A stretch of 64,000 nucleotides of DNA, taken from a virus. The stretch lies in IMG/VR virus record IMGVR_UViG_3300045988_062794, one strand, 5' to 3'. Of this stretch, positions 7,966-31,840 are shown piece after piece (the first letter of the stretch is position 1; every line of letters starts with the position of its first letter). Under the pieces are notes generated by a model that was not told the origin of the DNA, made no database searches, and saw only the letters and a list, made by a program, of their open reading frames with translations. The position numbers were made by a program, and so were the translations under genes.

Positions 7966-8051
7966 GTAAATGTAGTTTAAACACTATTATAGTGTAAGGA
8001 GAAAACAAGCAATTTTCATTGCTTATAAGAGTTCGAGTCTCTTCATTTACT
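7966..8051 (+). ncRNA. tRNA-shaped element E1 (expanded D-loop, non-canonical anticodon-position loop)
   Basis: Acceptor stem GTAAATG (7966-7972) / CATTTAC (8044-8050). T-arm AAGAG-TTCGAGT-CTCTT (8027-8043). D-stem GTTT (7975-7978) / AAAC (8003-8006) encloses a 24-nt loop that has its own ACACT/AGTGT hairpin. The arm at the anticodon position, AAGCA/TGCTT, has an 8-nt loop ATTTTCAT (or 6 bp plus a 6-nt loop), never 7 nt. A T7 run follows (8051-8057). Confidence 0.5.
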
Positions 8052-10852: not shown

Positions 10853-10878
10853 TTATTAACATTTAAAACATTATCAAA

Positions 10879-11671: not shown

Positions 11672-11738
11672 CACTATATTCACGGTATAAGAACTGTGCT
11701 GTGTCTTATTAGGCTTATTAATCATTGTTAGGACGGGG

Positions 11739-12487: not shown

Positions 12488-12553
12488 GATAATATAGTTC
12501 AATGGTAGAATAATGCTTATGCATAGATCTGGGTTCAAATCCCAGTATTATCA
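12488..12553 (+). ncRNA. 65-nt tRNA-shaped element E2 lacking an anticodon loop (UUAU tetraloop hairpin instead)
   Basis: GATAATA|TA|GTTC-AATGGTA-GAAT|A|ATGC-TTAT-GCAT|AGAT|CTGGG-TTCAAAT-CCCAG|TATTATC|A. It has a 7-bp acceptor stem, a glycine-tRNA-like D-arm and a canonical T-arm. Only 12 nt occupy the position where a 17-nt anticodon arm belongs. Confidence 0.6.
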
Positions 12554-12571
12554 CATTAAAATTCTATTAAT

Positions 12572-12886: not shown

Positions 12887-13268
12887 AAGCAAGTTTTATA
12901 ATTACAATTTCAGTTATTTTGATACAGATCAAGGATTTGTATGTGCTGGAATAAGAGACAATGTTGTCGGTATGTATAACTTACTCGTCTCAAAAGGTGC
13001 CAACGTAGTTAATAAAGATGCAGATATAATTAGAATTAGCAGTAAGAAACCTATTGTTTTATTCTGTTTTAACAGCAATACTAGCATTGGCAATAAACTT
13101 GGTAGTGTCCAGATAATGTCTCATCATTGGTGGAATTATTATCACAACAAAGCACACAGGCATTTGAGTAAAACAAAAATCCATACATATAACTTACCTT
13201 CGCAATGGAATAAAGTACTGATGGAAGGCTGCGTATGGAAGGAAGTAGAAGTATTAATACCAGAGTAA
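12867..13268 (+). CDS. hypothetical protein
   Basis: 133-aa ORF with operon-type overlaps. Confidence 0.5.
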   Translation: MTMTKSESKFYNYNFSYFDTDQGFVCAGIRDNVVGMYNLLVSKGANVVNKDADIIRISSKKPIVLFCFNSNTSIGNKLGSVQIMSHHWWNYYHNKAHRHLSKTKIHTYNLPSQWNKVLMEGCVWKEVEVLIPE

Positions 13269-13269
13269 T

Positions 13270-13464
13270 ATGAAAGTAGGTAAAAGAATTTATTTCGAGA
13301 ATCAAAATGAGAGAAAAGAGTTCATTGCATTACTAAAGGATGCTAAGGACTCTATAGAAGCTGCCAGAATTATAAGTAAAACTTATAATAAGGATATAAC
13401 AGCTGCTATGGAAATCGCTGAAGTTTATTTTAATTATATCAGAAAGGACGGTAAAAATGAATGA
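13270..13464 (+). CDS. hypothetical protein
   Basis: 64-aa ORF. Confidence 0.45.
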   Translation: MKVGKRIYFENQNERKEFIALLKDAKDSIEAARIISKTYNKDITAAMEIAEVYFNYIRKDGKNE

Positions 13465-13882
13465 ATTGAAAGAAAGTGGAAGCTATTTAGTAGTCGTAGA
13501 AGGATGCGAAATCATTGCAGTAATAGAAGGATGCGCACCTATGTTACGAATAACTCGTGCATTTAACTTATCTAAGTTCATAGAAGATGGAACAATGATC
13601 GACAGTAAAGAAGCCGTAGAGGCTATAAGTCAGAATCCTTCTAATTTCAATTTCAAACCATTAAATTTAACTGTTGAGCAATTCTCGTTGCAAGAGATTA
13701 AACAAGACAAATCATTAGCTTACACTAATAAAGAATACCAAAGATGGTTATCTATCTGTGGTAGTATTGACGATAGTGTTCTAATTAGCAATATCATGCT
13801 CGAAAAAGGGTTTAGTCATGCACAAGCAAACTTAATAGTTGAACAGTTATGGAAGGACAAAAGAAACTCATTACAGCGGTAG
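13457..13882 (+). CDS. hypothetical protein
   Basis: 141-aa ORF. Confidence 0.5.
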   Translation: MNELKESGSYLVVVEGCEIIAVIEGCAPMLRITRAFNLSKFIEDGTMIDSKEAVEAISQNPSNFNFKPLNLTVEQFSLQEIKQDKSLAYTNKEYQRWLSICGSIDDSVLISNIMLEKGFSHAQANLIVEQLWKDKRNSLQR

Positions 13883-14328
13883 ATGAGCAAGACTTAAACA
13901 AATATTTAAGGAGTCGATTAGTAGAACCATATCTTCCAAAAGATTTAGTAGAAGATTGGTCTATATTTGGGTCTGTAGTATCAAATGTATATGGACCAAA
14001 CGGTATATTACCACCTGAATACAGAAACAACGATTTAAAACTATGGCTACTACATAAGTTGCAAGTAAAAGCGTTGTTAAAGTATGCTCAGTGGAAGATT
14101 TTCAGTAATATAGCTATGCTAAATAACAGAAGATCCACTGATAATGTATTAACAAGGATATTTGTATCTAAGTTAAACAATTTGGAACTGCCTAAAGTTT
14201 ATGCAGATGAAATATTTGATAATTTTCATCTACAATATGTGGTACGCAAGCCTGTCTTTGAAGACTATTTTGTTATCAAAGTATTAGGTTTACCATTCGG
14301 GTATGAACGAAAGGAGTGTCCTTTTTAG
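13849..14328 (+). CDS. hypothetical protein
   Basis: 159-aa ORF. The G of its TAG stop is nucleotide 1 of minihelix E3. Confidence 0.5.
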   Translation: MEGQKKLITAVDEQDLNKYLRSRLVEPYLPKDLVEDWSIFGSVVSNVYGPNGILPPEYRNNDLKLWLLHKLQVKALLKYAQWKIFSNIAMLNNRRSTDNVLTRIFVSKLNNLELPKVYADEIFDNFHLQYVVRKPVFEDYFVIKVLGLPFGYERKECPF

Positions 14329-14365
14329 ATAGGTAGGGGTTCGACTCCCCTACTTATCACCACCA
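14328..14365 (+). ncRNA. acceptor/T-arm minihelix E3 with an encoded CCACCA
   Basis: GATAGGT (14328-14334) stacks directly on AGGGG-TTCGACT-CCCCT (14335-14351), then ACTTATC (14352-14358), discriminator A, and CCA CCA (14360-14365). The 12-bp coaxial helix includes one G:T wobble. There is no D-arm or anticodon arm. Confidence 0.5.
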
Positions 14366-14381
14366 TTTAGTTTATTAGCCT

Positions 14382-14942
14382 ATGAAGAGAGAAGATGAAG
14401 ACAATCTAATTAGGCAGGCTAAACTTGGCGATCAGAAAGCTTTTAGTACGCTTTACGACCGTCACAAGCCATTAATTCGATACATTATCTTTGATATTGT
14501 AAAGAATGATGATGTAGCAGATGATCTCCTATCTGTTACATTTACTAAGGCTTTCAGTCGTATAGACTCATATGTTAATCCTATTTCATTTGAGTTATGG
14601 TTGAAGAGTATTGCGGTCAATACCTCAATTGATTACATACGACACACTAAGAATGAGAAGCAGAATCATTATATTGATTCCGAGGATAATTACATTCAAT
14701 TGCAAGATAGTGAATTGTCTGCAGAAGATATTATATCTAAGCGAGAATCTATTGATCAATTGAAAGTAGCTCTGAGTAGATTGAGGTTTAAGTACCGTAA
14801 TATATTAGAATTACGGTACTTTAAAGGCCTCAGCTATGAACAACTCGCAAATGAATTAGCCGTGCCTATAGGAACTATAAAAAGTGACTTAAACAAGGCT
14901 AAAAAGAAATTACGAGAATTCTATAACAAACTTAATAACTAA
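14382..14942 (+). CDS. ECF-type sigma-70 family RNA polymerase sigma factor
   Basis: 186 aa. The region-2 signature is SFELWLKSIAVNTSIDYIRH. Region 4 is LSRLRFKYRNILELRYFKGLSYEQLANELAVPIGTIKSDLNKAKKKLRE. Confidence 0.85.
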   Translation: MKREDEDNLIRQAKLGDQKAFSTLYDRHKPLIRYIIFDIVKNDDVADDLLSVTFTKAFSRIDSYVNPISFELWLKSIAVNTSIDYIRHTKNEKQNHYIDSEDNYIQLQDSELSAEDIISKRESIDQLKVALSRLRFKYRNILELRYFKGLSYEQLANELAVPIGTIKSDLNKAKKKLREFYNKLNN

Positions 14943-14954
14943 TATTTACAAACA

Positions 14955-15335
14955 ATGGCAGAAGTAGCAATTATCGCAATTGTAGTCATCTTATTAGCCA
15001 TCATTATCGGTAAGGCCAACCATAGTGATGCATTAATTTGGAGATTACTATTCGTCTTTAGCCTTACTGTTTGCGTATCTGTTGGTCTTCTCTATATTCT
15101 GAATGAAAAGCCAAAGCTTTCAGCTCAGACTATTGAGAAAGATAGTAAGATGATTATAGATGCAGACACGTCCCACACAGTAAACTTCAACCAGATTACA
15201 ATGGAAGAAGCGTCTTGTGACACTGTGGGTCAGGACACTACATCTTATGATCATCTTACTCGGATACAGTGCATAAACATGATGCCAGCAATTGCAAAAG
15301 CAATAGCTGAGCATGCTATCTTTGATTCTTCATAG
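14955..15335 (+). CDS. two-helix membrane protein (possible anti-sigma partner)
   Basis: 126 aa with AIIAIVVILLAIIIG and LLFVFSLTVCVSVGLLYIL. It lies 12 nt downstream of the sigma gene. The functional link is inferred from position only. Confidence 0.4.
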   Translation: MAEVAIIAIVVILLAIIIGKANHSDALIWRLLFVFSLTVCVSVGLLYILNEKPKLSAQTIEKDSKMIIDADTSHTVNFNQITMEEASCDTVGQDTTSYDHLTRIQCINMMPAIAKAIAEHAIFDSS

Positions 15336-15418
15336 ATGGTGAGATCTAAAGACATTACTGAGAATGAGAATTAGCTTAAAAGCGTAGTATTAACAATTTA
15401 AAAAGTATCAAACTTAAA

Positions 15419-16837
15419 ATGGGAAAGAATAAAACAGCAGCAAAGAAGGCTGCACAAGAAAAAGCAGTAGAGACTAAGCAAGGCGAAACTAAAGCCAAAG
15501 TAGAAACAAAGGTAGTAGAAACAAAGGAAAAACCTACAATTAAGGTTGATCCGAAACCGGCTCCTTCACCAACACCAGCACCTAAAGCTGAAGAAAAACC
15601 TACCGAAGAAGGTGGTGTACAGGTTGTTTCTCCTGTTGAACAGTCCTCTGCTCAGCTATCCGCAGAAGTATTCCAGAATGAGGATTTGCGGACGCTTTTG
15701 ATGAAGGATGTGCTTACTCCAGAAACTACTATTGATGCAAATCATATGGTAGAGCTGGCAAAAGTTGCAACTGAACGATTCAAAACAAAGGATCAGAAAG
15801 ATCCGCGCGTAATCGCAACTAATGAAATGATTGACGATGTAACTGCGTATTGTCTTGCACTTGCAGGAATCAACATGCAGATTCATGGTAAAAAGCTTGG
15901 TTTGTCTGTACCGGTTGAAGCTACCGCAAGTTTCGTACGAACTATGGGCTTCTTCGGTGTAGCTTTGCCTGAAGGTAAAGCAATCGAGGATCCTAAGAAT
16001 CCTGGTCAGATGATCTTGCCCTTTGAAGCTTCTGAAGAAGCAGTGAAAACTGTAAAGGAAGAGATCAAGATTCAGAAGAGTAAACCTACGATGGATCCGT
16101 CATTGTGGAAGAGTGATGACGATGCTAAGAAAGCAGTTCGTTATATCATGTCTGATACCTTGACTAAGGACAATCGCTTCTTAGTTTCTATTTCAAAGGT
16201 AAGAATGTACAAGATGCTTACTTCAGCTAACGAAGACGAAAAGAAGATGTGGGAAAACTCCAGCAATGCTGTTATCCTTGAAGTTATCTTCAACATCCTC
16301 GGTGATAGCAAGTCAACATTAATGAATGCTATCGGTGGTCAGATTTATTCCGCAGCAGCAACTCGGAAGAATCCAGTCTTAAGCCATCTTATAGCTAAGC
16401 GTAACTTCTCGCAGTTTAGTGACGAAGATATTCGTGATATCACGAAGGTATTCGTTAAATTTAAAGCTGCGGATAGCTCTAAAGACCCTCTTGAAAACAA
16501 CATTGCCTGGGTTGGCTTAACTCAAGGTAAGAAAGAGGATGCTTTACTTTATCCGAAACGTCTCAGTGACTTCGATAAGAATGTGATGAACCGTATTGAC
16601 AACTTATATCCGGACAAAGTTGGCGTACCATCTGATCCTGATTATCGTAGAAAAGCTTCAAACTTGATGATAACGATTATGAACCTGTATAAGGAGAATG
16701 ATCTGCTTCCTCAGGTATCTGAAACTGATTACAAACAGGCTGTAGAAGATGCTGTTAAAGCAACTTCAGGTGAAACTGCTCCGAAAGAAGAACCCAAACC
16801 AGCCGAAGACAAAAAGGATAAAGGAGAAAAGAAATAA
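15419..16837 (+). CDS. 472-aa protein with Lys/Glu/Pro-rich termini, function unknown
   Basis: Long ORF that looks G+C-richer than the neighbouring small ORFs. The N-terminus is KTAAKKAAQEKAVETKQGETKAKVETKVVETKEKPT.. and the C-terminus is ..KEEPKPAEDKKDKGEKK. Confidence 0.7.
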   Translation: MGKNKTAAKKAAQEKAVETKQGETKAKVETKVVETKEKPTIKVDPKPAPSPTPAPKAEEKPTEEGGVQVVSPVEQSSAQLSAEVFQNEDLRTLLMKDVLTPETTIDANHMVELAKVATERFKTKDQKDPRVIATNEMIDDVTAYCLALAGINMQIHGKKLGLSVPVEATASFVRTMGFFGVALPEGKAIEDPKNPGQMILPFEASEEAVKTVKEEIKIQKSKPTMDPSLWKSDDDAKKAVRYIMSDTLTKDNRFLVSISKVRMYKMLTSANEDEKKMWENSSNAVILEVIFNILGDSKSTLMNAIGGQIYSAAATRKNPVLSHLIAKRNFSQFSDEDIRDITKVFVKFKAADSSKDPLENNIAWVGLTQGKKEDALLYPKRLSDFDKNVMNRIDNLYPDKVGVPSDPDYRRKASNLMITIMNLYKENDLLPQVSETDYKQAVEDAVKATSGETAPKEEPKPAEDKKDKGEKK

Positions 16838-16853
16838 CTCCTAAATCAAAAGG

Positions 16854-17246
16854 ATGAGCCGTTTAACAGATTTTCTTTGGTGCGTATTGTTCGCTTTTGC
16901 AGCGGTTATTATTAGCATCAAATTGAGCCCACAAAGGGTAGAAGCTGTTGAGGTTAAACCTCATTACGAGCTTACAATTCCTAAGGTCGAGCCTAAGTCT
17001 TTTAACTTAGAGCTTGACCTCTCTAAGGGAACAGCGAGAGTAGAAAGTGACGCAGGAATCAGTAACGCTAACGTTACAGTAAATCACCCTGCACCACAAG
17101 TAATTAACAAACCTGCAAAGGTTAAAATTAAGAAAGTATATGAAACAAAAACTGAGGTGTTGTCGAAGGTCGTGATGTTTAAAATGCCTACCCCACGATT
17201 GATTCACACAACAACACCTGAGTATCCTACAAGGGTAGTGAAGTAA
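16854..17246 (+). CDS. N-terminally anchored hypothetical protein
   Basis: 130 aa with FLWCVLFAFAAVIISI. Confidence 0.5.
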   Translation: MSRLTDFLWCVLFAFAAVIISIKLSPQRVEAVEVKPHYELTIPKVEPKSFNLELDLSKGTARVESDAGISNANVTVNHPAPQVINKPAKVKIKKVYETKTEVLSKVVMFKMPTPRLIHTTTPEYPTRVVK

Positions 17247-19540
17247 TTAACATTGTGCTTACTGTAGAATGGCACCAGGGAAAACGAGTCTACCCCTGTA
17301 GTAAGAAGATAGATAGTGGTATTGTAGCTGATACACTTAAAAAGCAATAAAATCAGCGTATATAAATTACGATAAATCTGATCAATTTATGGTTTGTATA
17401 GACAAGTAATACAGAATACGAGAATATGATAACAGCTAACACTGTGATTCAAAAGGTAGTATAATAACTTGCTGTGGATTTATTACTTTATCCATGAAGA
17501 ATCAGCAAGAAAATGGGTAACGGGTATAACCCATAAAGCTCGAGAACCGTCTGGTGGAGCGATTACAACACGGCACGTAGGTCAGCAGACACGAAGGCAA
17601 AGTATACAAATGGGGTACAAATCCTTAAGTAAGTAGAAATGGCAATTCTACTGAATCCCCAATAGAGTCTGTAGGTACTATCAAGTACGGCATCACAGAA
17701 GGACGAAAAGGGTTAATTATCGTTAGAATTCCAAACTAATGATAGCCGTTTAGACTGACTAACGTCTTCGATGGGTCCAAACTATCGTTAAAAATAGCTA
17801 CTTCTAGTGTTCTACTCTACTGTTATTACTGCTTTGTATTACAGTAATAAAGATCTTGACAACATAACATATGGTATAGTTATGGATGAGTATGTGAAAG
17901 GAAGGATTCAAACCAAGAAAATTAATAATCGAAACTAAAAGCTGAGTGGCTATGATCCATACAAAGTTAAAGAGGTAACGGACTTTAATAGCGTATGACA
18001 GATTATCCGGAGCAGGTGCCAAACCTGTGCTTGAGAAAGCTTATTAGAATGTTCACTTAGCCTTGCAAACTAAGTTAAATAGTTCTTTTAAGGGGGTATT
18101 CCAGGTGCTAGGTCTAGATTATGTGGGAGAGATTACCACGTCTTTGCGAAATCAAGGATTAAGAAAGGTATAAGGTTTGAAGAACAGTGACCGAGTTTTG
18201 TGCTTACATTATTTAATGAGAGTTATGTCACTATAAGTCATGGAAACTAAGCACACAGTGGTAAAAGTACTGAGAACTACTACCAAACAACAGAGGTGCA
18301 GTAGCGATGCACGTTGTACGCAATAAAAAAGGAATCCTACCGCCTGCGGTGTTTTAAAGGTGTAGGTAAGTTTAGTTAAAGCTTTCTTTAATAGATATAA
18401 CGAAAGTGGGGCTAATGTATAGTCAATGGGCTAAATTCAAGTCTGTTAATCCAGAGAAATGTAAATGTTACGATGTTTACCTGAATCCAACGATTCATCA
18501 CTGGCTCGAGAGTTAACGAGACTCTTAAATAAAAGCGTGGATAACATGTCTAACTAACGTAGGTCCAAAAACCGAATAATAAATCTGTGGAAGTCCTCGC
18601 TAAGGAAACTGACTGCGACCACAGCTTGGCGAATGCGATTGCTTAGTAGTATCAGGGTATAATGCGCAACATTATATGTCCGAGAGAAAGCGTCTCATTG
18701 AAGCTTATAGACCTTTAAGAGTGAACCTAATAGGGAAACTATACTTATAGACCTGTCATAAGCGAGAGTAGATGAGAAGAGGTGAAAGTCCTCAATCTTC
18801 AACCAAGTAAAATAAATAAAATCCTAGTCATGGTTACGTTGGCATCCCTATACTTAGTAATAAGTATTATATGGCGTAAGAAGTAGGTATTAGTGAATAA
18901 CTATATGAATCCTATAAGTTATTACAAATAACAAAGAATGATGAAACTTACTTCATTCACTTCGCAGTTTTAGTAACGTTCTGAAAAACGACCGGACATA
19001 ACTACTTGCCCGATAGAGAGTTTTATTTTGTTGCCACATAAAATAATTATTAGAGGTCAATCTCTGGATAATCTAAAAGTTAGGCAGTTGTACGCTGTTT
19101 TATGTGAGTGCAGTTGGTCCTGAGACACCAGGAGAACCTTGGCAAAATATTACGGATCCTCTATGATAACGATTGTAGAGTATTTCACACATATTGACTG
19201 AACTAAGAGAATCCTTCGAAGAGTCTCATTAGCTCTGGTCATAAAGCGATTTGATAGTTCCAAAGTAAGATAAATAAGTAATTTTGTAGTATCTGTCTCA
19301 TATTATAAAAGGATATAGCAATAGCATAATATCAAGAAAGTTTATCTCGCTTCTAAAACAAATTAAAGTAAAAACAGTTTCTTTTCGTATTTCTATCTCA
19401 GTATCTCTTGAATGAGACACGACCGTGGTTTTAACCTATCTGATATAAGATGATGATAAATCGTGCATAAAAACAAAGAGAAGAATACGGAGCACCAATT
19501 AAAATTATTATTAACAAACTTATCAAAAGGAGAAAATAAA
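17247..19540 (+). ncRNA. candidate giant structured non-coding RNA region (boundaries and strand provisional)
   Basis: No credible ORF in any of the six frames over ~2.3 kb. All three stop codons are frequent in every frame. Helices paired by hand: 17258-17305 (10 bp), 17468-17509 (7 bp plus a nested 5 bp), 17513-17534 (6 bp), 17611-17661 with a nested helix at 17633-17651, 17823-17850 (9 bp), 18296-18312, 18508-18526 (with a plus-strand-only G:T) and 18776-18800. Internal repeated words are described in the findings. Confidence 0.45.
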
Positions 19541-20107
19541 ATGGCAAATATCAATTATAGTTTAGTAGTTGCATCTCAGTTAGGTGCACTTTTAGGAATG
19601 AATCTCATTCACATTCGTCGCAAAAATGTAGATCCCGACTATTCTAACAAAGAACGGGAAGGTAAACAACGTCTGGCAATTCCAGTATATATCTATGGTA
19701 TTGACCGTATTAAGATTAAGAAAGCTGAACTTGTAGACCTTGGTGAAGGTCAGCGGATTGTTCAGTTTAATGATGATCCGAAATTGCAGTTATCTCTGGC
19801 AAATGCAAAAGATATCACAGATGTTATTAAGAAACCAACTGTTCAGGAGGTTGCGAATGCTGTAATGGCTGAAGAAGCCAGTGCGCAACAGACGTTCTTT
19901 GTAGACGACAAAACTGCAACAGAACTTGCGGTTTCCTTTAACAACAGATCGTATAAGGAACTTTCCTCCATGATGGAGGTGCTCTCACGTCAGGCAGCCT
20001 GTTTAACGGATGCTAATGACGCTATGATGAATGCTTGCAAGTTAGAAATGGCACAGGTAGGTAAAAGTGTCGATTTCGTTCCCATTAACGTTAATGAAAC
20101 AAAATAA
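19541..20107 (+). CDS. hypothetical protein
   Basis: Track ORF 19463 (GTG) trimmed to ATG 19541, which is preceded by AAAGGAG. The product starts MANINYSLVVASQLG... Confidence 0.6.
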   Translation: MANINYSLVVASQLGALLGMNLIHIRRKNVDPDYSNKEREGKQRLAIPVYIYGIDRIKIKKAELVDLGEGQRIVQFNDDPKLQLSLANAKDITDVIKKPTVQEVANAVMAEEASAQQTFFVDDKTATELAVSFNNRSYKELSSMMEVLSRQAACLTDANDAMMNACKLEMAQVGKSVDFVPINVNETK

Positions 20108-20625
20108 TGACAGAACTAAGCAAGACTTCGAAGTTAAATCTCGAACGTATTCTTGCAGATGAAGATATTCGTAGCTCTTTGCTTTATAATGGCAAAAAGC
20201 CAGGTATCTTTAAATTAAATGCAGATGGATCGCTTACACTTGGTGAAACTACATTTGGTTGGTGGAATAGTTTTATTGGGTGTCAGCAGCACTTAAGCTT
20301 TTCAGATCTGACTGTACATTTGATTAATTTCATGGCTGGTGTTGGTAAAAATCAAAATGATTTTGCTCTGAATGGATTATTCCAAGATTTCGTTAACTTT
20401 GCACTTAAGCAGAAAGACAAGAATAGGATGGTAGATATCTTGTTAACTGCATATTTGTATGGTTATAAAGAAATACAGAAGGATGGAAGGAAACCTTCTG
20501 TGGATACAGTAATTAATTCAGTTATCAGACAACAAGATGTTCGTGATTTAGATGGTGTCGCTGTTTTAACCAGCGATGGTCCTGTATTACTAAGAAATAA
20601 CTTAGTATTCCAAAGACTTAAATAG
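20107..20625 (+). CDS. hypothetical protein
   Basis: 172-aa ORF whose ATG overlaps the upstream stop (TAATG). Confidence 0.6.
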   Translation: MTELSKTSKLNLERILADEDIRSSLLYNGKKPGIFKLNADGSLTLGETTFGWWNSFIGCQQHLSFSDLTVHLINFMAGVGKNQNDFALNGLFQDFVNFALKQKDKNRMVDILLTAYLYGYKEIQKDGRKPSVDTVINSVIRQQDVRDLDGVAVLTSDGPVLLRNNLVFQRLK

Positions 20626-20701
20626 GATATATCAATATGTTTTTGAATTAGGAAGGTATAATAAACATTAGTATATATGTTATTTTCGTAAAAAATATAG
20701 T

Positions 20702-20727
20702 AAAAGGATTAGGAAGGTTATCCTTTT
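20702..20727 (+). terminator. terminator-like hairpin
   Basis: AAAAGGAT/ATCCTTTT 8-bp stem with a 10-nt loop. The T tract is part of the stem, so this is a weak call. Confidence 0.3.
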
Positions 20728-20886
20728 ATATTGCTGTGATATGGTACTTATAAAAGAGTGCTAAGTGAAGGAAAGCCCCGAGAATAAGAAGGGGATGCTT
20801 CATCGAGGAAGACACAGCATCGATACATGTGAGCGTATTATCAAAATATTTACTCATATAAAATTATTAATTTAAAATATTTTTAT

Positions 20887-22200
20887 ATGGTTAAAACGTA
20901 CAATAACATTGCAGAATATGCCAAAAAGTTACTAATTGAAGCAAATCCGTATATTGATGAAAAAGATATTTATATCACAGCTAATACAGATATAGCTAGT
21001 ACTTTTCGAATATTAAAAGAAAAAGACTTAGCCTGTATTGACACAAGTGGTACTGAAGAAATACCATTAATACATTATACTATTTATAGTGAATCTTTAA
21101 AAGAAAAAGAGAAAGCATTTAGTAAAGAACGAGCATGTGAGCGTATTTTACAAGGTATAACTTCATATTCTTGTGAAGGGTTTACTGTAATTTCAGTTAG
21201 AGTAATTAATAAAGAAGAATCGCCAAGTGAAGAAGATTTTATACTATATGCTTTTACTGAAGCTATGTATAATCGAGCATTTGAATTAGCCTATAAAGAA
21301 GGAGAGATCAAATACACTATCGTACCAGATAATGGTATACATCGTGCAATCGTGCGTGATTCTATGATGGGAAAATATCTTGAATATATTAAAGTAGAAG
21401 ATATACCGTCTAATAGTGCTATTCATCAATGCAAAGAAGATATTCTTAAAAGTGCAGAGTTCTTCTTTAAGAATATTCCATTATTCTCACGATTTGGACA
21501 GAAACCGTTACGTAAGTTCTTATTGTGTGGAGAACCTGGAACAGGTAAAACTTCTATTTGTTATGATATTGCTAAGGAATATCAGAAAGATATACCTATA
21601 GTATTTGTGACAGATTTTGATTCTTTAGCAAAACACATTTCAGAATGTGCAAAGGTTAATAAACGAACCATTGTAGTATTTGAAGATTGTGAAGTTGGCT
21701 TCCGTAATTCTGCAATTGACTCTTCAATTCTTAACTTCCTTGATGGTATTGATCGACCGAATATTCAGGATGGTGCTATAGTTATTATGACTACTAATCA
21801 TCCAGAACGTATTGAGGCTCGTATTACCAAACGTCCAGGTCGTATCGATAAGTTATTCTTTATAAACGCCTTAGAAGGACAATCAGCAATTGATGTCTTT
21901 AACCTTTACTTTGGTGAATTTATGAAGGAAAATAATTTTGATGCTACTACTCAAACAGCAAAAGAAGCTATTGAAATTATTGCTTCTGGTATGACTGGTG
22001 CTCAGATTAAGGAATTATTTAACAGTTATGTTTGTTACATGGTATCAGAAGCAAAAGATTTTAACCTCAATGACGTATTTAATACGAAAGTTGAATTGTT
22101 TAAATCTTTTGATGACATGGACAAGAACTATAACTCTATAGAAGCTAATAAAGAGTTTGATAAAGCTCGAGGTAAAATTCTATCTGTTTTGAACAGATAA
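20887..22200 (+). CDS. AAA+ ATPase (classic FtsH/Cdc48-type AAA module)
   Basis: 437 aa. Walker A is LLCGEPGTGKTS, Walker B is IVVFEDCE, and the sensor/arginine region is IMTTNHPERIEARITKRPGRIDK. Confidence 0.8.
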   Translation: MVKTYNNIAEYAKKLLIEANPYIDEKDIYITANTDIASTFRILKEKDLACIDTSGTEEIPLIHYTIYSESLKEKEKAFSKERACERILQGITSYSCEGFTVISVRVINKEESPSEEDFILYAFTEAMYNRAFELAYKEGEIKYTIVPDNGIHRAIVRDSMMGKYLEYIKVEDIPSNSAIHQCKEDILKSAEFFFKNIPLFSRFGQKPLRKFLLCGEPGTGKTSICYDIAKEYQKDIPIVFVTDFDSLAKHISECAKVNKRTIVVFEDCEVGFRNSAIDSSILNFLDGIDRPNIQDGAIVIMTTNHPERIEARITKRPGRIDKLFFINALEGQSAIDVFNLYFGEFMKENNFDATTQTAKEAIEIIASGMTGAQIKELFNSYVCYMVSEAKDFNLNDVFNTKVELFKSFDDMDKNYNSIEANKEFDKARGKILSVLNR

Positions 22201-22206
22201 GCATAG

Positions 22207-22234
22207 AGTAGGAGAAATTAAGTTTTCTCCTACT
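22207..22234 (+). terminator. terminator-like hairpin
   Basis: AGTAGGAGAAA-TTAAGT-TTTCTCCTACT (11 bp). There is no clear T tract. Confidence 0.4.
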
Positions 22235-22287
22235 TACACTGGTAATTGATGCAAAATCGATAGTATTAATTTTAAAATCAAATCGAT

Positions 22288-22818
22288 ATGTTGACATCAA
22301 AAGATATTATTACAAAACGCGACACTTTGTCTGAAACCATTACTCGTAATTGGGATATCATTAAGAGTGAAAACGTAGTTTTTCGTGGTTATAAACGTAA
22401 CTATGATATGAAGTTAGTTCTTGATAACATTTTAACTCTGTGTAAGGAAAGAATTGAAGTAAAACTTCAGTCTTTAGCATTAAACCTTGGATTCGAAGAT
22501 ATTGACGATCTTCCCGAGGATAATAATTATGCTACAATCTATGCTATAAGTGAATTGAAAGAGATTCACAAGCAGTTAGGCATTGTTCCTACAATCGACC
22601 CAGAGATTATTAAAAAATACGGTAAGAAGAAAATGCGTAAAACGCAGATTTTGAGTCGAGCATATATTACGACCCTACGGAATACTATTCAGATTCAAAT
22701 CAATACTCTTACTGTAGAACTTGAAAACTTCAATAGCAGTCATTCATTGAAAAATGGTGATCGTAAGAAAGGAAAGTCTGTTACAATGGACTTCTCTAAA
22801 CAGAAAGCTGCTGCATAA
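22288..22818 (+). CDS. hypothetical protein
   Basis: 176-aa ORF. Confidence 0.55.
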   Translation: MLTSKDIITKRDTLSETITRNWDIIKSENVVFRGYKRNYDMKLVLDNILTLCKERIEVKLQSLALNLGFEDIDDLPEDNNYATIYAISELKEIHKQLGIVPTIDPEIIKKYGKKKMRKTQILSRAYITTLRNTIQIQINTLTVELENFNSSHSLKNGDRKKGKSVTMDFSKQKAAA

Positions 22819-22860
22819 TCGTTTGAAAGTCTCTGAAAATTTTACGGCAATTTGCTTGCC

Positions 22861-22926
22861 TTGTGTATAGTTTAATGGTAGAATATCTCGAAAGAGAAGA
22901 TATGAGTTCGAGCCTCATTACACAAC
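22861..22926 (+). ncRNA. 65-nt tRNA-shaped element E4 lacking an anticodon loop (GAAA tetraloop hairpin instead); twin of E2
   Basis: TTGTGTA|TA|GTTT-AATGGTA-GAAT|A|TCTC-GAAA-GAGA|AGAT|ATGAG-TTCGAGC-CTCAT|TACACAA|C. The architecture, the TAGTTyAATGGTAGAATA D-arm and the AGAT spacer are the same as in E2. A GGCAA/TTGCC hairpin (22846-22860) abuts its 5' end. Confidence 0.6.
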
Positions 22927-22976
22927 TCCGTTACAAATTAACATTTTACATTAACATCAAATTAATTAAGTAAGAT

Positions 22977-23771
22977 ATGGAAACAATTCATTTATACAAA
23001 ACAAAGAAAGAACTGATTGAAGAAAGTTCAAAACGTGGTATTACAGTAAAACAACTTATCGCTGAAATTAAAGCAACAGCAAAGGCTGAACGGCGAAAGA
23101 AAGTATTATCTCATCAACAGAAATTAAACTATTGGAAAGTACATCGCTTTGATGCTGATGTACAACTTGTCAAGAAACATACTTCAGCTCAAGCTCGTTT
23201 TGAGAAGGTAATTCAAGACAAGATTAAAGGTCTTCATCAGTTTAAGAAACAGACAAATATGTCTGATGAAGCTTTTGAAGCGGCAAAAGAACGTATTGAA
23301 AAGCACTCACAGAGAGAAAAAGCTCTCGAAGAGAGACGAGCTGATCGTAGAGCTCGAATCGAGAAAGAAGCTCTCAGAGTCACAAAAAAGATGAAAAGTG
23401 ACTTAGAAAGATTTATCCAGGCTGAACAATTACGAAAGACTCGAAAAGAGGAGAAACGGTCCAAATATGCCGGCAAAAAAGTGAAGGTCGCTCCTCGACC
23501 CATTGTAGACAACCCTCTTGTTAAGCTAAAGAAAGGAGAAGCTATTTATAGTATCGAAATTCGTTACCTTAACAGCAAGAGTGTTCTTCCTCCAACGTCT
23601 CCCTACACTATCGACAAGTTAGAGAAACGTATGTCTGATATTCATACTTATCAGTTAGGAAAGAAGAACAATGGTTATATAGGTGTATATGCCTACAATA
23701 TTGCTAATCCTTCTATTTGCGTGAAGGAAATGGTTAAGCCAGAAGAATCAAAACTTGATTCTGCAGCTTAA
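22977..23771 (+). CDS. basic, probably coiled-coil protein
   Basis: 264 aa with a central K/R/E-rich region. The antisense ORF 23237..23512 is considered spurious. Confidence 0.6.
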   Translation: METIHLYKTKKELIEESSKRGITVKQLIAEIKATAKAERRKKVLSHQQKLNYWKVHRFDADVQLVKKHTSAQARFEKVIQDKIKGLHQFKKQTNMSDEAFEAAKERIEKHSQREKALEERRADRRARIEKEALRVTKKMKSDLERFIQAEQLRKTRKEEKRSKYAGKKVKVAPRPIVDNPLVKLKKGEAIYSIEIRYLNSKSVLPPTSPYTIDKLEKRMSDIHTYQLGKKNNGYIGVYAYNIANPSICVKEMVKPEESKLDSAA

Positions 23772-23804
23772 CAAGCACAGGGGCGCGTCTGTAACGCGCA
23801 ATAA

Positions 23805-23903
23805 GGTAGGATAATAGTGTGATAAGCTATAAAAGGCACTATACAGTTTTGTGGGAACGAAACTAGGCGCATGTATAGGGCAGTTCGATACTGCATCCTA
23901 CCA
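23805..23903 (+). ncRNA. tRNA-shaped element E5 (99 nt, expanded arms)
   Basis: Acceptor stem GGTAGGA (23805-23811) / TCCTACC (23896-23902) with discriminator A. T-arm (G)GCAG-TTCGATA-CTGC(A). D-like stem AGTG/CACT around a 17-nt loop ending in GG. A 5-7 bp stem, CTATACA (23839-23845) / TGTATAG (23872-23878), encloses 26 nt at the anticodon position. A GC-rich hairpin GCGCGT/ACGCGC (23783-23799) lies just upstream. Confidence 0.45.
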
Positions 23904-23918
23904 CTAAATAACCACACT

Positions 23919-25868
23919 ATGAAAATTAGAAACAAACCAGTATTAGTATATGATATTGAAGTATTTCAAAATATCTTTCATTGTACTGTAAAAAATACTG
24001 AAACTAATGAACTATTTCTATTTGAAATATCTGAACGTAAGAATCAGTTAAGTGAATTAGTTAAGTTTTTTAAACATTTTGATAATCAAGTTGGTTCATG
24101 GAACCAATCATATACAATAGATTATCAATTTGATACAGATGTAATATTCGCAGGATACAATAATATTCATTATGATAATCCTATTATAAATTATATAATA
24201 GATTATTATAATCGCATGGTACAAAAACCTTATTGGGAAATTTGTCAGTCTATTTTTAACCTAAGTAAAGTAATACTGTCAAGTAAAGATGGTAATGAAG
24301 ATGCTTGGGAGAAATGGAAATATCAACAATGGTTTGAATCATTTGATATTCTTACTATGCTATATTCAACTCAACTACGTGTTGGCTTGAAAGAAATGCA
24401 AGTAACAATGCAATATCCCAATGTTCAAGAATTTGTATATGATTGGAGTAGTCCTTTAAAAAAGGAATTATTTGATGAAATGATTCAATATAATATAAAT
24501 GATGTTGAATCTACTTCAGAACTACTACAAAGATGCAAGAAAGATGTTGACCTACGAATTGCAATTGAAGATGAATATGGTGTAAGAGTCTTAAGTAAAG
24601 ATGGAGTAAATATCGGTATGAAAATTATTACTCAAAAGTATCTTGAAAAGACAGGGTTAACATGGAAACAGATTAAAGATCTTCGTTCTCCTATGGACCT
24701 AATTCCACTGAAAGATGTTATACTTCCTTTTGTTAAATATGAATCTCCTATTCTTAAAAACATGCTTGAAGAAATGAAAAAACAAATAGTTCCTCCAGGT
24801 AGAAAAGGATATGAGTATAAATTTATATTTGATAATCTACGTTATTCAGTAGGAGTAGGAGGTATTCATTCAGTAAATAACCCTGAGATTATTATACCAA
24901 AAGAAGATGAAATGCTAATAGATATAGACGTTGCTTCTCTATATCCAAGTATGCTAATACAATACAAGTTTTATCCTAAACATTTAGGACCTGAATTTCT
25001 TGAAGTTTATTCTCAAATTAGAGAAGAACGATTAGAAGCAAAAAGAAATGGAAACAAAGTAAAGAATGAAACTTTGAAACTTGCGTTAAATGGTTTAAGT
25101 GGTAATTTACAAAACGAACATAATTTTTGTTATAGTCCTTTTGCAGTAATGCAAATCCGTATTAACGGGCAATTGCTATTACTTATGTTAGCTGAATCAT
25201 TAGTTAAATTAGGCTGTAGAATAGTGCAGGCTAATACTGATGGTTTATTTGTCTTACTTAAGAAAAACAAATACGAACAGGTTAAACAAGCTTGTAAAGC
25301 CTGGGAACAGTTAACAAAGCTTGAACTTGAAGAAGATCGTTTTGAAGCTATGTATCAATTTGCAATTAATGATTATATTGCAATTAAAGAAGGATATAAA
25401 GCTAATAAAGATGATAAACTTATTAAAAAGAAAGGTATGTTTATTACAGATGTCTTACTTGGTAAAGGTCTTAATCCTAAGATAATACCTGAAGCAGTTA
25501 TTAGATATTTTGCAAATGGAATACCTGTGAAAGATACTATAATGAACTGTAAAGACATTCGTAAATTCTTACAAGCTGAAAAAACAGGTAAACAATGGAC
25601 AGTAGAATACAACAATGAAGTACAACAGCGAATTAATCGTTTTTATGTTAGTACAAATGGTTTATATTTATGGAAATGGAAAGATAATAAAGGTATAAAA
25701 GAGTATCAAAATATGCTTAAAGGATATGGTGTTACTATACTTAATACTCTTCCAGAAGATAAACCCATTGACCAGTATAATATTAATTACACTTATTATA
25801 TTCTACAGGCAACAAAGATTATTAACGCATTAAAGCCACAACAGCTAAGTCTATGGGGCTTTTCATAA
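23919..25868 (+). CDS. family B DNA polymerase
   Basis: Exo I is VYDIEVF, Exo II is GYNNIHYDNPIINY, Exo III is YNINDVES, motif A is DVASLYPSM, motif B is KLALNGLSGN and motif C is QANTDGLFV. The track start 23871 runs through E5, so I prefer ATG 23919 (MKIRNKPVLVYDIE). Confidence 0.9.
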   Translation: MKIRNKPVLVYDIEVFQNIFHCTVKNTETNELFLFEISERKNQLSELVKFFKHFDNQVGSWNQSYTIDYQFDTDVIFAGYNNIHYDNPIINYIIDYYNRMVQKPYWEICQSIFNLSKVILSSKDGNEDAWEKWKYQQWFESFDILTMLYSTQLRVGLKEMQVTMQYPNVQEFVYDWSSPLKKELFDEMIQYNINDVESTSELLQRCKKDVDLRIAIEDEYGVRVLSKDGVNIGMKIITQKYLEKTGLTWKQIKDLRSPMDLIPLKDVILPFVKYESPILKNMLEEMKKQIVPPGRKGYEYKFIFDNLRYSVGVGGIHSVNNPEIIIPKEDEMLIDIDVASLYPSMLIQYKFYPKHLGPEFLEVYSQIREERLEAKRNGNKVKNETLKLALNGLSGNLQNEHNFCYSPFAVMQIRINGQLLLLMLAESLVKLGCRIVQANTDGLFVLLKKNKYEQVKQACKAWEQLTKLELEEDRFEAMYQFAINDYIAIKEGYKANKDDKLIKKKGMFITDVLLGKGLNPKIIPEAVIRYFANGIPVKDTIMNCKDIRKFLQAEKTGKQWTVEYNNEVQQRINRFYVSTNGLYLWKWKDNKGIKEYQNMLKGYGVTILNTLPEDKPIDQYNINYTYYILQATKIINALKPQQLSLWGFS

Positions 25869-31607: not shown

Positions 31608-31726
31608 CGATTGCTCAGTAATGAGCGGACACCACTGGCATGGAGAAGGCAAACTTGAAAAGAGTGTGGAATCGTTAAATTGGCGATAAGGAAACTTATC
31701 TGGGGGTTCGAATCCCCCCTCGTTAC
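31605..31726 (+). ncRNA. tRNA-shaped element E6 (~122 nt, large insertion, GAAA-capped arm before the T-arm)
   Basis: Acceptor stem TAACGAT (31605-31611) / CTCGTTA (31719-31725), 6 of 7 pairs. D-like arm GCTC-AGTAAT-GAGC (31613-31626). GATAAG-GAAA-CTTATC (31685-31700) lies 1 nt before T-arm GGGGG-TTCGAAT-CCCCC (31702-31718). About 57 nt in between remain unassigned. Confidence 0.4.
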
Positions 31727-31743: not shown

Positions 31744-31840
31744 AGGGAGTAAACACAATCTATTAATAATAGATAGATACGAAGATGTGTGAATGGACCA
31801 GGTTTATACCTATGGAGCGGTTCGAGTCCGCTACTCCCAC
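31744..31840 (+). ncRNA. tRNA-shaped element E7 (~97 nt, UUAU-capped arm before the T-arm)
   Basis: Acceptor stem (A)GGGAGT (31744-31750) / ACTCCC(A) (31833-31839), 6 bp plus an A:A at 1-72. ACACA (31753-31757) / TGTGT (31786-31790) encloses the ATCTATT/AATAGAT hairpin. The CCAGGT-TTAT-ACCT..GG arm (31798-31815) abuts T-arm AGCGG-TTCGAGT-CCGCT (31816-31832). Confidence 0.45.

What the first reader, a model, noticed from the sequence alone, without database searches (positions are those of the whole stretch)
22861..22926. Second anticodon-less 65-nt tRNA-shaped RNA, with a GAAA tetraloop (E4), paralogous to E2
E4 has exactly the E2 layout 10 kb away: TTGTGTA|TA|GTTT-AATGGTA-GAAT|A|TCTC-GAAA-GAGA|AGAT|ATGAG-TTCGAGC-CTCAT|TACACAA|C. 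The D-arm and the AGAT spacer are nearly identical to E2. The acceptor stem, T-stem and mini-hairpin differ but stay paired, which amounts to compensatory change between paralogs. A GNRA tetraloop on a 4-bp stem is a designed-looking cap, not a decayed anticodon loop. Two independent copies with the same deletion argue for selection on an anticodon-less shape rather than a pseudogene.
Basis: seen in the sequence. Interest (0 to 1): 0.7.

Follow-up and report, generated by a model that had tools for sequence, protein, structure and literature searches.

The report
Anticodon-less tRNA-shaped RNA in crAss-like phage
A gut crAss-like phage carries, between two early genes, a conserved 66-base RNA that keeps every part of a tRNA except the anticodon loop, so it cannot decode and most likely serves as a cutting signal for the host's tRNA-processing enzymes.

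Summary
It scores 48.4 bits on the Rfam tRNA model, while ARAGORN finds no tRNA in the window, because a 4-bp stem with a GAAA loop replaces the anticodon arm.

The window is a Suoliviridae crAss-like phage, closest to cr10_1. E4 sits 42 nt after the stop of a 176-aa ORF and 50 nt before the next ATG.

The same slot in four diverged lineages always holds a tRNA-shaped element with a non-canonical loop (GAAA, UUUU, UUACGA, AAUU). Stems change by compensation. So this is selected structure, not recent decay. The GAAA loop itself is not conserved.

At a neighbouring slot, a true tRNA-Arg(UCU) and a 64-65-nt anticodon-less form are orthologous, so these elements come from tRNA genes.

The paralog E2 lies 28-30 nt after a phage two-piece tmRNA in every locus checked. 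cr10_1 has no canonical tRNA at all.

The best mechanism is inferred, not shown, at about 0.5: host RNase P and RNase Z excise it and thereby cut the polycistronic transcript, like plant mitochondrial t-elements or mascRNA. Rivals are a trans-acting tRNA mimic or a pseudogene.

I rate it a new variant of a known kind, of moderate interest.

The parts
22861..22926 (+). E4: the whole 66-nt anticodon-less tRNA-shaped element, discriminator C included
   Evidence: Rfam tRNA 48.4 bits. Own model R1 69.2 bits. ARAGORN negative.
22861..22867 (+). Acceptor stem 5' strand, TTGTGTA, which pairs with 22919-22925
   Evidence: 7 of 7 Watson-Crick pairs. Orthologs have AGTGTAA/TTACACA and GTGTGTA/TACACAC, which stay paired.
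22870..22884 (+). D-arm GTTT-AATGGTA-GAAT, with G18 G19
   Evidence: It is nearly identical in E2 and in the cr10_1 orthologs.
22886..22897 (+). Mini-hairpin TCTC-GAAA-GAGA in place of the 17-nt anticodon arm
   Evidence: Orthologs have TAACA-UUUU-UGUUA, GAUUC-UUACGA-GACUC and UAAGC-AAUU-GCUUA. The stem covaries.
22898..22901 (+). 4-nt variable region AGAT (U48 partners A15)
   Evidence: E2 has the same AGAT. Both cr10_1 paralogs have ..GT instead.
22902..22918 (+). T-arm ATGAG-TTCGAGC-CTCAT
   Evidence: The cr10-type has GAGAG/CTCTC, which is two double compensatory changes.
22919..22926 (+). Acceptor 3' strand TACACAA plus discriminator C. No CCA is encoded; TCC follows.
22927..22935 (+). 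Trailer TCCGTTACA, invariant in three E4 lineages. Its function is unknown.
   Evidence: Alignment A4. It does not recur in the window.
22288..22818 (+). Upstream 176-aa ORF (gp18-like, ends ..KAAA). Its stop is 42 nt before E4.
   Evidence: No family hit. Helical AF2 model with no fold match.
22977..23771 (+). Downstream 264-aa ORF (gp17-like, ends ..DSAA). Its ATG is 50 nt after E4. The DNA polymerase gene follows at 23871.
12488..12553 (+). E2, the paralog of E4, starting 29 nt after the stop codon of the phage tmRNA tag frame
   Evidence: tmRNA followed by the tRNA-like element is conserved in 6 loci and cr10_1.
7966..8051 (+). Third tRNA-shaped element (86 nt): a hairpin inserted in the D-loop, and a 6-bp stem with a UUUC loop instead of an anticodon arm
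   Evidence: R1 41.5 bits. Fold. The cr10_1 homolog L001 343-421 has different, still paired, stems.
31745..31833 (+). Fourth tRNA-derived module before the primase gene: acceptor GGGAGTA/TACTCCC, T-arm AGCGG-TTCGAGT-CCGCT, mini-hairpin AGGT-TTAT-ACCT
   Evidence: Direct reading. Compensatory changes against cr10_1. The CM detects only the T-arm part.

Best explanation
E4 is a tRNA-derived structural RNA module embedded in the long co-directional early/replication operon of a Suoliviridae crAss-like phage. It keeps the acceptor stem, D-arm, T-arm and elbow. Those are the parts read by tRNA end-processing enzymes. It has lost the anticodon loop, so it cannot decode. The inferred mechanism has three steps. 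(1) E4 is transcribed as part of the polycistronic mRNA. (2) Host RNase P cuts at its 5' end (before 22861), and RNase Z or an equivalent cuts after the discriminator (22926). (3) This releases a small tRNA-shaped RNA and separates the upstream cistron (176-aa ORF) from the downstream cistrons (264-aa ORF, DNA polymerase), giving each new ends and possibly a different stability or translation. The paralog E2 would in the same way create the 3' end of the coding piece of the phage's two-piece tmRNA. What is shown: the structure, its conservation and covariation, its descent from true tRNA genes, its tight intergenic same-strand placement, and the absence of canonical tRNAs in the closest complete genome. 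What is inferred: co-transcription, cleavage by RNase P/Z, and any effect on expression.
For: 1. tRNA fold without an anticodon loop.
2. Long-term retention at one slot. Window type is 66 nt with a GAAA loop. cr10 type is 68-69 nt with UUUU(U), on 14 IMG/VR contigs plus cr10_1. L094/L099 type is 72 nt with a 6-nt loop. L205/L206 is 62 nt with AAUU, where the flanking protein is only 44% identical.
3. Within the cr10 type, all 5 variable sites lie in unpaired positions.
4. There is no room for its own promoter. The element starts 7 nt (cr10_1), 10 nt (L094), 16 nt (L205) or 42 nt (window) after the upstream stop, and ends 44-51 nt before the next ATG in the three lineages measured.
5. All 142 and 56 model hits in polymerase-oriented and gp18-oriented loci are on the gene strand.
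6. Other slots of the same operon hold genuine tRNAs (Arg-UCU, Leu-UAA, Val-CAC) in relatives. One slot is orthologously either tRNA-Arg(UCU) or a 64-65-nt anticodon-less form.
7. Still more reduced forms exist, including a 42-nt acceptor plus T-arm minihelix, which is the minimal RNase P/Z substrate shape.
8. E2 lies 28-30 nt after the tmRNA in every locus where Rfam detects the tmRNA.
9. The same operon carries a Hatchet self-cleaving ribozyme and RAGATH-9 in other intergenic gaps.
10. The complete cr10_1 genome has no canonical tRNA.
11. No conserved aminoacylation identity: 1:72 is U-A, A.A or G-C; the discriminator is C or A; there is no G3:U70.
12. Established knowledge (my own): bacterial RNase P, RNase Z and the CCA-adding enzyme recognise the acceptor/T-arm/elbow and do not need the anticodon arm.
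Against: There are no expression or end-mapping data, so cleavage is pure inference. A minihelix would suffice for RNase P, so the strict retention of the D-arm and all tertiary pairs may point to a function of the mature RNA itself. Some related phages lack any element in this module (L155-L157; the ~71% polymerase group has no E4 slot), so it is dispensable. In the window type a weak terminator-like hairpin (22846-22860) abuts E4; if real, it would argue against read-through from the upstream gene. No slot was found where a ribozyme replaces a tRNA-like element. The invariant trailer TCCGTTACA is not explained by this model.
Confidence: 0.5

Rival explanations
1. The excised (or separately made) RNA is the functional product. 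It would be a trans-acting tRNA mimic that binds a tRNA-recognising protein without entering decoding. Candidates are a decoy or sponge for a host tRNA-directed defence or toxin, for processing or modification enzymes, or for the trans-translation machinery (SmpB/tmRNA).
For: The full L-shape is conserved, including the D-arm and all tertiary pairs, which is more than RNase P needs. Paralogs within one genome share D-stem and variable-region states (GAAU/AGAU in the window, GAAC/..GU in cr10_1), as if co-adapted to one partner or homogenised. E2 is linked to a phage tmRNA. A TLD-only RNA in mycobacteriophage DS6A has been proposed to titrate SmpB (PMC4131195). The pattern is found mostly in viral contigs: 81 loci in IMG/VR against 17 in 596 Gb of cellular genomes.
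Against: No partner protein was found. No tRNA-related enzyme appears among the window ORFs scanned, and the conserved neighbour gp18 has no informative fold. Decoys for anticodon nucleases would need an anticodon loop. There is no G3:U70 or tmRNA-type TLD. Acceptor sequences are not conserved between orthologs.
Confidence: 0.2
2. E4 is a decaying tRNA pseudogene with no function. It is a relic of a phage tRNA gene that lost its anticodon loop by a small deletion.
For: Descent from real tRNA genes is demonstrated at a neighbouring slot. The L094/L099 ortholog has a 6-nt loop UUACGA and one stem mismatch, which looks like an intermediate. Some lineages have lost the element. Anticodon-defective tRNA-like genes also sit inside the tRNA arrays of other phages (L008, L011, L032).
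Against: Four lineages, down to 44% identity of the flanking protein, keep all four helices through compensatory changes while the primary sequence drifts to 55-68% identity. Variation within a type avoids stems. All tertiary-interaction residues are retained. The mini-stem itself covaries. cr10_1 keeps at least 3 such elements but no decoding tRNA.
Confidence: 0.1
3. E4 is CCA-tailed and aminoacylated. It would donate an amino acid outside normal decoding, in a non-ribosomal transfer or in anticodon-independent ribosome rescue together with the phage tmRNA.
For: The acceptor/T-arm is intact and E2 is adjacent to the tmRNA. Some aminoacyl-tRNA synthetases ignore the anticodon (established knowledge).
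Against: No conserved identity set: no G3:U70, no long variable arm, no G-1, and the discriminator and first pair vary between orthologs. Both cr10_1 elements have an A.A mismatch at 1:72. No partner enzyme is found in the window.
Confidence: 0.05
4. The selected feature acts at the DNA or transcription level, as a promoter, terminator or recombination hotspot between operon segments. The tRNA shape would be incidental.
For: The trailer is invariant, with GTTACA, 17 nt, then (T/C)ATCAA in three lineages. The phage encodes a sigma factor. A weak terminator-like hairpin lies just upstream in the window type.
Against: Covariation preserves RNA pairing, including G-U pairs, on the + strand only. 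All hits are on the gene strand. The motif does not recur in the window. Promoter-like hits are at chance level, 11 against 9.6 expected. The upstream hairpin is absent in other lineages.
Confidence: 0.05

Closest known systems
Plant mitochondrial t-elements and the mitochondrial 'tRNA punctuation' principle (Forner et al. 2007, PMC1920247)
   Same: Both are tRNA-derived structures without decoding function that lie next to protein-coding sequences. There they are cut by RNase P/Z to make mRNA 5' and 3' ends. Reduced acceptor plus T-arm forms exist in both systems.
   Different: Those are organellar and experimentally mapped. Here the element is in a bacteriophage operon, keeps a complete D-arm and elbow, and no ends have been mapped.
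mascRNA / MALAT1 and MEN-beta tRNA-like elements (PMC8457004, PMC9777231); Arabidopsis GUT15 tRNA-like (PMC6152437)
   Same: All are cloverleaf-like RNAs of about 60 nt with a defective anticodon arm, embedded in a longer transcript. RNase P cleavage makes the 3' end of the upstream RNA. That matches what E2 would do for the tmRNA coding piece.
   Different: Those are eukaryotic nuclear transcripts with no sequence relation to E4. Processing is proven there and only inferred here.
Canonical phage-encoded tRNAs (Rfam RF00005)
   Same: E4 has the same fold and tertiary residues and scores above the Rfam gathering threshold. It sits in slots that hold real tRNA-Arg, tRNA-Leu or tRNA-Val in related phages, and it descends from such genes.
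   Different: E4 has no 7-nt anticodon loop and no anticodon, so it cannot decode. ARAGORN does not call it.
tmRNA tRNA-like domain, including the TLD-only RNA of mycobacteriophage DS6A (PMC4131195)
   Same: Both are phage-borne tRNA-shaped RNAs without an anticodon. The paralog E2 is physically linked to a phage tmRNA.
   Different: E4 and E2 have a full D-stem, a capped anticodon-stem stub and no G3:U70. They are contiguous cloverleaves, not the two-ended TLD.
Bacterial/phage YrlA (Y RNA-like) tRNA-mimic module (Chen et al. 2014, PMC4201824)
   Same: Both are tRNA mimics with D-arm and T-arm found in bacteria and phages and lacking an anticodon.
   Different: In YrlA the ends leave through the anticodon-stem side into a Ro-binding helix, and the acceptor side is closed (my own knowledge of that paper). 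E4 has free acceptor ends and a closed anticodon stub. Rfam gives no YrlA hit.
Phage T4 stable RNAs C and D in the tRNA cluster (own knowledge, not checked here)
   Same: These are small, stable, partly tRNA-like phage RNAs of unknown function that are co-processed with tRNAs.
   Different: They are longer, sit inside a tRNA cluster, and are not cloverleaves with a deleted anticodon loop.

Membership tests
tRNA (RF00005), as a fold | 7-bp acceptor stem, D-arm with G18G19, T-arm with a UUCRA loop, and a score above the Rfam gathering threshold | tested here: met
   48.4 bits against a gathering score of 29, full-length match. All helices are paired.
tRNA, as a decoding adaptor | 5-bp anticodon stem with a 7-nt loop that presents a 3-nt anticodon | tested here: not met
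   E4 has a 4-bp stem and a 4-nt GAAA loop. ARAGORN finds 0 genes in the window. Orthologs have 4-, 5- or 6-nt loops.
tRNA, as a decoding adaptor | 3' CCA and aminoacylation with a defined identity set | tested here: inconclusive
   CCA is not encoded; TCC follows the discriminator. No conserved identity elements between orthologs. Charging cannot be tested with these tools.
tRNA pseudogene (neutral decay) | Helices and tertiary residues erode at the rate of the flanking DNA, with no compensatory change | tested here: not met
   Compensatory changes occur in the acceptor, T-stem and mini-stem across four lineages. Variation within a type is confined to unpaired sites.
t-element / mascRNA-type processing signal | Non-decoding tRNA-like fold embedded in a longer transcript, directly next to functional RNAs or cistrons | tested here: met
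   E4 lies 7-42 nt after the upstream stop, 44-51 nt before the next ATG (three lineages measured), on the same strand, with no room for a promoter in cr10_1. E2 lies 28-30 nt after the tmRNA. Co-transcription itself is inferred.
t-element / mascRNA-type processing signal | Cleavage by RNase P at the 5' end and by RNase Z at the 3' end in vivo | not testable with these tools
   This needs end-mapping RNA-seq or in vitro cleavage assays.
tmRNA tRNA-like domain | G3:U70 alanine identity, no D-stem, acceptor made from the 5' and 3' ends of a long RNA | tested here: not met
   E4 has G3:C70 and a normal D-stem and is a contiguous cloverleaf. The real phage tmRNA nearby does have G3.U70.
YrlA / Y RNA-like tRNA mimic | Match to the Rfam YrlA model, and ends that exit through the anticodon-stem side | tested here: not met
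   No such Rfam hit even at E <= 1 over 9000-24000. The ends are at the acceptor stem.

The most novel reading that the evidence does not exclude
Suoliviridae crAss-like phages may maintain a dedicated class of anticodon-less tRNA mimics whose mature form acts in trans. One possibility is a partner or modulator of the phage's own two-piece tmRNA and ribosome rescue. Another is a decoy that absorbs a host tRNA-directed immune or toxin activity. In that case deletion of the anticodon would be an adaptation (no decoding, no anticodon-nuclease target) rather than a loss.
Probability: 0.2. Interest if true: 0.85.

Novelty: new variant of a known kind. Interest (0 to 1): 0.6.

Why it matters
Phage tRNA genes are usually explained by codon usage or by escape from tRNA-cleaving defences. 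Here the closest complete relative, a member of one of the most abundant phage groups in the human gut, has no decoding tRNA, yet it keeps several tRNA shapes under structural selection. One of them is coupled to a phage tmRNA.

If these shapes are processing signals, phage operons use the same 'tRNA punctuation' logic as mitochondria, alongside self-cleaving ribozymes. That would explain why tRNA genes sit singly between early genes.

If they act in trans, they would be a new class of viral tRNA mimic.

There is also a practical consequence. Rfam-based pipelines will annotate them as tRNAs, while ARAGORN-type tools miss them or print 'tRNA-???'.

Tried and rejected
- Thermodynamic folding: E4's MFE is not the cloverleaf and z = -1.0. 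This is uninformative for an AU-rich tRNA-like RNA.
- TCCGTTACA trailer as a recurrent promoter or motif: matches in the window are at chance level, and there is no k-mer enrichment.
- Sigma-70-type promoter scan: chance level. The only + strand terminator-like hairpin next to E4 is weak and not conserved.
- A tRNA-related enzyme encoded nearby: none was found. Pfam and PHROGs on the window ORFs give replication, recombination and sigma-factor families only.
- The conserved neighbour gp18: only 11 homologs and no Pfam domain. The AF2 model (pLDDT 75) is a helical bundle with no PDB match at E <= 0.001.
- A ribozyme replacing a tRNA-like element in the same slot in relatives: none in 10 diverse loci.
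- blastn of the 80-nt element against GenBank phages: no hit, probably because the query is too short and diverged.
- RNA ends from public assemblies: a single Logan contig, uninformative.
- Hairpin motif CTGAAYNGGG, seen upstream of the tRNA-Arg slot in relatives: absent from the window.
- Literature: seven full-text searches found no description of anticodon-less tRNA-like elements in crAss-like or other phages.
- Ala-Ala C-termini of ORFs upstream of tRNA-likes: real, but confined to the gp17 and gp18 families, so they are not independent evidence.

Full report

The Rfam tRNA model matches it end to end at 48.4 bits (gathering 29, E 2.8e-7 for the window). In that alignment 4 bases replace the 9 central positions of the anticodon arm. 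E2 at 12488-12553 does the same at 59.2 bits.

ARAGORN, which requires an anticodon loop, reports no tRNA in the 64-kb window.

Single-sequence folding is not decisive. The cloverleaf costs -10.6 kcal/mol against an MFE of -11.3, with z = -1.0.

By direct reading, the residues behind the tRNA L-shape are all present: U8, A14, A15 with U48, G18G19, U54-U55-C56 and A58.

**2. Where is it?**

The window is a crAss-like phage of the family Suoliviridae. The nearest GenBank record is cr10_1 (NC_055875), about 78% identical in DNA over this region.

E4 lies in the long + strand early/replication block, which runs from about 4.2 to 35.2 kb.
- Upstream is a 176-aa ORF whose stop is at 22818. It has no family hit, and its AF2 model is a helical bundle with no PDB match.
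- Downstream is a 264-aa ORF whose ATG is at 22977, then the DNA polymerase gene at 23871.

The same block carries other structured RNAs:
- a Hatchet ribozyme (9456-9573);
- RAGATH-9 (10389-10566);
- a two-piece (permuted) tmRNA;
- E2;
- at least two further tRNA-derived modules, at 7966-8051 and 31745-31833.

**3. Relatives**

A pattern scan of IMG/VR for this D-arm, with a too-short spacer before the T-loop, found 81 loci. The same scan of 596 Gb of cellular genomes found 17.

I built a covariance model (R1) from 16 diverse copies. I searched 80 loci centred on homologs of the polymerase and 45 of the 80 loci centred on homologs of the 176-aa ORF.

The exact E4 slot, just after the 176-aa ORF homolog, is occupied in four lineages:

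| Lineage | Length | Stem and loop in place of the anticodon arm | Notes |
|---|---|---|---|
| Window type | 66 nt | TCTC-GAAA-GAGA | 4 further contigs |
| cr10 type | 68-69 nt | UAACA-UUUU(U)-UGUUA | 14 contigs plus cr10_1 |
| L094/L099 | 72 nt | 5-bp stem with one mismatch, 6-nt loop UUACGA | ARAGORN: 'tRNA-???' |
| L205/L206 | 62 nt | UAAGC-AAUU-GCUUA | flanking protein only 44% identical |

None has a 7-nt loop. Between lineages the acceptor and T-stems differ by double compensatory changes: ATGAG/CTCAT against GAGAG/CTCTC, and TTGTGTA/TACACAA against GTGTGTA/TACACAC. Overall identity is only 55-68%.

Within the cr10 type the five variable sites are all unpaired: position 26, positions 44 and 45, one T-loop base and the loop length.

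On the 16-sequence set, 95.7% of cells pair against 62.9% after shuffling (0 of 500 shuffles reach it). Slid registers give 39-47%. The mini-stem has double changes at all three scored pairs. The acceptor result is biased by my own selection of sequences; the T-stem and mini-stem results are not.

**4. Origin**

Other intergenic slots of the same module hold bona fide tRNAs in relatives: Arg-UCU, Leu-UAA and Val-CAC.

At the slot upstream of the 176-aa ORF homolog, the flanks align clearly. One lineage has tRNA-Arg(UCU). Others have 64-65-nt elements with a 3-4-bp stem and a UUAG or UUA loop, and they share the unusual UUUGAWU T-loop. The anticodon-less forms are therefore descendants of real tRNA genes.

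Many of the 4-nt loops (UUAU, UUGU, UUAG, UUUU, UUUC) read like an anticodon loop (Y32 U33 ... R37 N38) with the three anticodon bases removed. This is my inference.

The GAAA cap of the window type is not conserved. GAAA and GUAA caps do recur in analogous elements upstream of the polymerase gene (L141, L151).

**5. What it cannot be**

It cannot decode. It shows no conserved aminoacylation identity:
- there is no G3:U70;
- the first pair is U-A, A.A or G-C;
- the discriminator is C or A;
- CCA is not encoded.

It is not a tmRNA TLD or a YrlA module. Neutral decay does not fit the compensatory pattern.

The complete cr10_1 genome has no canonical tRNA at all. It does keep homologs of E2, E4 and the 86-nt element, all in the same block and on the same strand.

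**6. Most likely mechanism (inferred)**

The element is squeezed between cistrons. It starts 7 nt after the upstream stop in cr10_1, 10 nt in L094, 16 nt in L205 and 42 nt in the window. It ends 44-51 nt before the next ATG in the three lineages where this was measured. In most lineages it therefore cannot have its own promoter and must be part of the operon transcript.

All 142 plus 56 model hits in gene-oriented loci are on the gene strand.

What is retained is exactly what bacterial RNase P, RNase Z and the CCA-adding enzyme recognise: the acceptor stem, T-arm and elbow. What is lost is what they do not need. This rests on established knowledge.

More reduced versions exist, down to a 42-nt acceptor plus T-arm minihelix.

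E2 lies 28-30 nt after the end of the tmRNA model in every locus where that model scores, seven in all counting cr10_1. RNase P cleavage at its 5' end would give the tmRNA coding piece a defined 3' end. Other gaps of the operon carry a self-cleaving Hatchet ribozyme.

The simplest common explanation is that E4 is a tRNA-derived processing module. It would punctuate the polycistronic RNA, like plant mitochondrial t-elements (PMC1920247) or mascRNA (PMC8457004). I put this at about 0.5.

**7. Against it, and rivals**

- Nothing here shows cleavage.
- The full D-arm and the tertiary pairs are more than a cleavage signal needs.
- Paralogs within a genome share D-stem and variable-loop states.
- The trailer TCCGTTACA is invariant in three lineages and unexplained.
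- Some relatives lack the element.
- No slot swaps a tRNA-like element for a ribozyme.

A trans-acting tRNA mimic therefore remains a serious rival, at about 0.2. It could be a decoy or sponge, or a modulator of trans-translation. For comparison, the DS6A TLD-only RNA has been proposed to titrate SmpB (PMC4131195).

The other rivals are less likely:
- a functionless pseudogene, about 0.1;
- an aminoacylated non-decoding donor, about 0.05;
- a DNA-level signal, about 0.05.

**8. Novelty**

Seven full-text literature searches found no description of such elements in crAss-like or other phages. The cr10_1 RefSeq record does not annotate the E4 homolog.

The kind of thing is known: a non-decoding tRNA-like structure used as a signal or mimic. 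The setting is new: a family of anticodon-less cloverleaves in an abundant gut phage clade, one of them tied to a phage two-piece tmRNA. I rate it a new variant of a known kind, with interest 0.6.

Noticed in passing
window 11701-12458 (acceptor piece ~11701-11761; coding piece from 12353; tag frame 12414-12458): The phage encodes a two-piece (permuted) tmRNA with tag GNIFVTDYTGLVAA*. The G3.U70 pair is kept, with a compensatory acceptor change against cr10_1 (GGGGATG/CATCTCC against GGGGCTG/CAGCTCC). Rfam and ARAGORN miss it in the window but find it in cr10_1 and five other loci. The window's T-loop region is unusual (GGGGC-UAUCGUAU-GCCCC).
   Followed up: partly
window 11739-12284 (-): A 181-aa HNH/endonuclease VII-like ORF is inserted in the intervening segment of the tmRNA gene, on the opposite strand, and overlaps the T-arm. 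It is absent from cr10_1 and from the otherwise window-like contig L035.
   Followed up: partly
window 17247-19462: This 2.2-kb stretch has stop codons in all six frames and no Rfam hit. It is nevertheless conserved at DNA level in cr10_1 (74.5% over 96%) and in parts of cr1_1/cr55_1 (82%) and cr50_1, and those records do not annotate it. It is a candidate large non-coding RNA or replication origin.
   Followed up: partly
window 9456-9573 and 10389-10566: A Hatchet self-cleaving ribozyme and RAGATH-9 RNA lie in consecutive intergenic gaps. The order Hatchet, RAGATH-9, tmRNA, tRNA-like E2 holds wherever these elements were detected in the related contigs.
   Followed up: partly
window 7966-8051; 14278-14357; 31658-31726; 31745-31833: Further tRNA-derived modules lie on the same strand. 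There is an 86-nt cloverleaf with a hairpin in the D-loop and a 6-bp/UUUC stub. There are two T-arm plus acceptor-like elements. There is also an ~89-nt element before the primase gene with compensatory changes against cr10_1.
   Followed up: partly
window 22803-22818 and 23757-23771; homologs in L001, L094, L116, L205: Of 38 + strand ORFs in the window, only the two that flank E4 end in Ala-Ala (..KAAA, ..DSAA). Their homologs end in ..KAAA, ..KIAA, ..SLAA, ..LLAA or ..ALAA, which resembles the ssrA degron and the phage tmRNA tag (..LVAA). These may be built-in degradation signals; this was not tested.
   Followed up: partly
window 22927-22970 (and L001 16745-16788, L094 ~4850-4896): Directly after E4, TCCGTTACA is invariant in three lineages. 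About 17 nt later comes (T/C)ATCAA, giving a -35/-10-like spacing, and the phage encodes a sigma factor (ORF 14382-14942). The motif is not repeated elsewhere in the window.
   Followed up: partly
L116 5930-6000 and many other polymerase loci; L141, L151, L105, L159 5864-5986, L162 5925-5983: In related phages the gap just upstream of the DNA polymerase gene holds other non-canonical tRNA-likes. These include a 71-nt form with a 6-bp stem and a UAU triloop (ARAGORN miscalls it tRNA-His 'atg'), forms with GAAA or GUAA caps, 80-84-nt forms, a 59-nt form, and a 123-nt form with a ~68-nt insert in place of the anticodon arm.
   Followed up: partly
L139 13523-13564 and ~25 other loci (about 5.7 kb downstream of the polymerase start): A 42-nt acceptor plus T-arm minihelix (TGATAGT AATGGTTAAT TAAGG TTCGATT CCTTA ACTATCA C) is conserved across many related phages.
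   Followed up: no
L025, L037, L051, L058, L064, L013, L073, L027, L044, L007 (IMG/VR contigs): This is a different recurrent element. It has the same D-arm, a short hairpin, AGAC, and a T-arm with loop TTCGAAG followed by a U-tract. In at least some copies the acceptor 5' strand is displaced upstream by an extra hairpin. It may be the 3' domain of a larger non-coding RNA.
   Followed up: no
L215/L238/L230/L202/L159, ~60-110 nt upstream of the tRNA-Arg slot: Two conserved hairpins share a loop consensus (AGTAC-TGAACTGG-GTACT and CTGC-TGAATTGG-GCAG) and precede the tRNA or tRNA-like element in relatives. They are absent from the window.
   Followed up: partly
L011, L008, L032, L052, L046, L070 (other phage contigs): In phages with large tRNA arrays, anticodon-truncated tRNA-like genes sit inside the arrays. 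L011 has three 'tRNA-???' calls with 2-nt 'anticodons'. The phenomenon is therefore not limited to crAss-like phages.
   Followed up: no
P0002-P0005 (193 aa), against window 22288-22818: Some public contigs carry a frameshifted version of the 176-aa ORF whose altered C-terminus reads into the 5' part of E4. This is either a sequencing error or a natural variant.
   Followed up: no
L260 32628-33668 (cr10_1 record 64930-65970): cr10_1 encodes a protein annotated as a retron-type reverse transcriptase, placed among large unannotated genes of the late, structural-gene region. It may belong to a diversity-generating retroelement.
   Followed up: no
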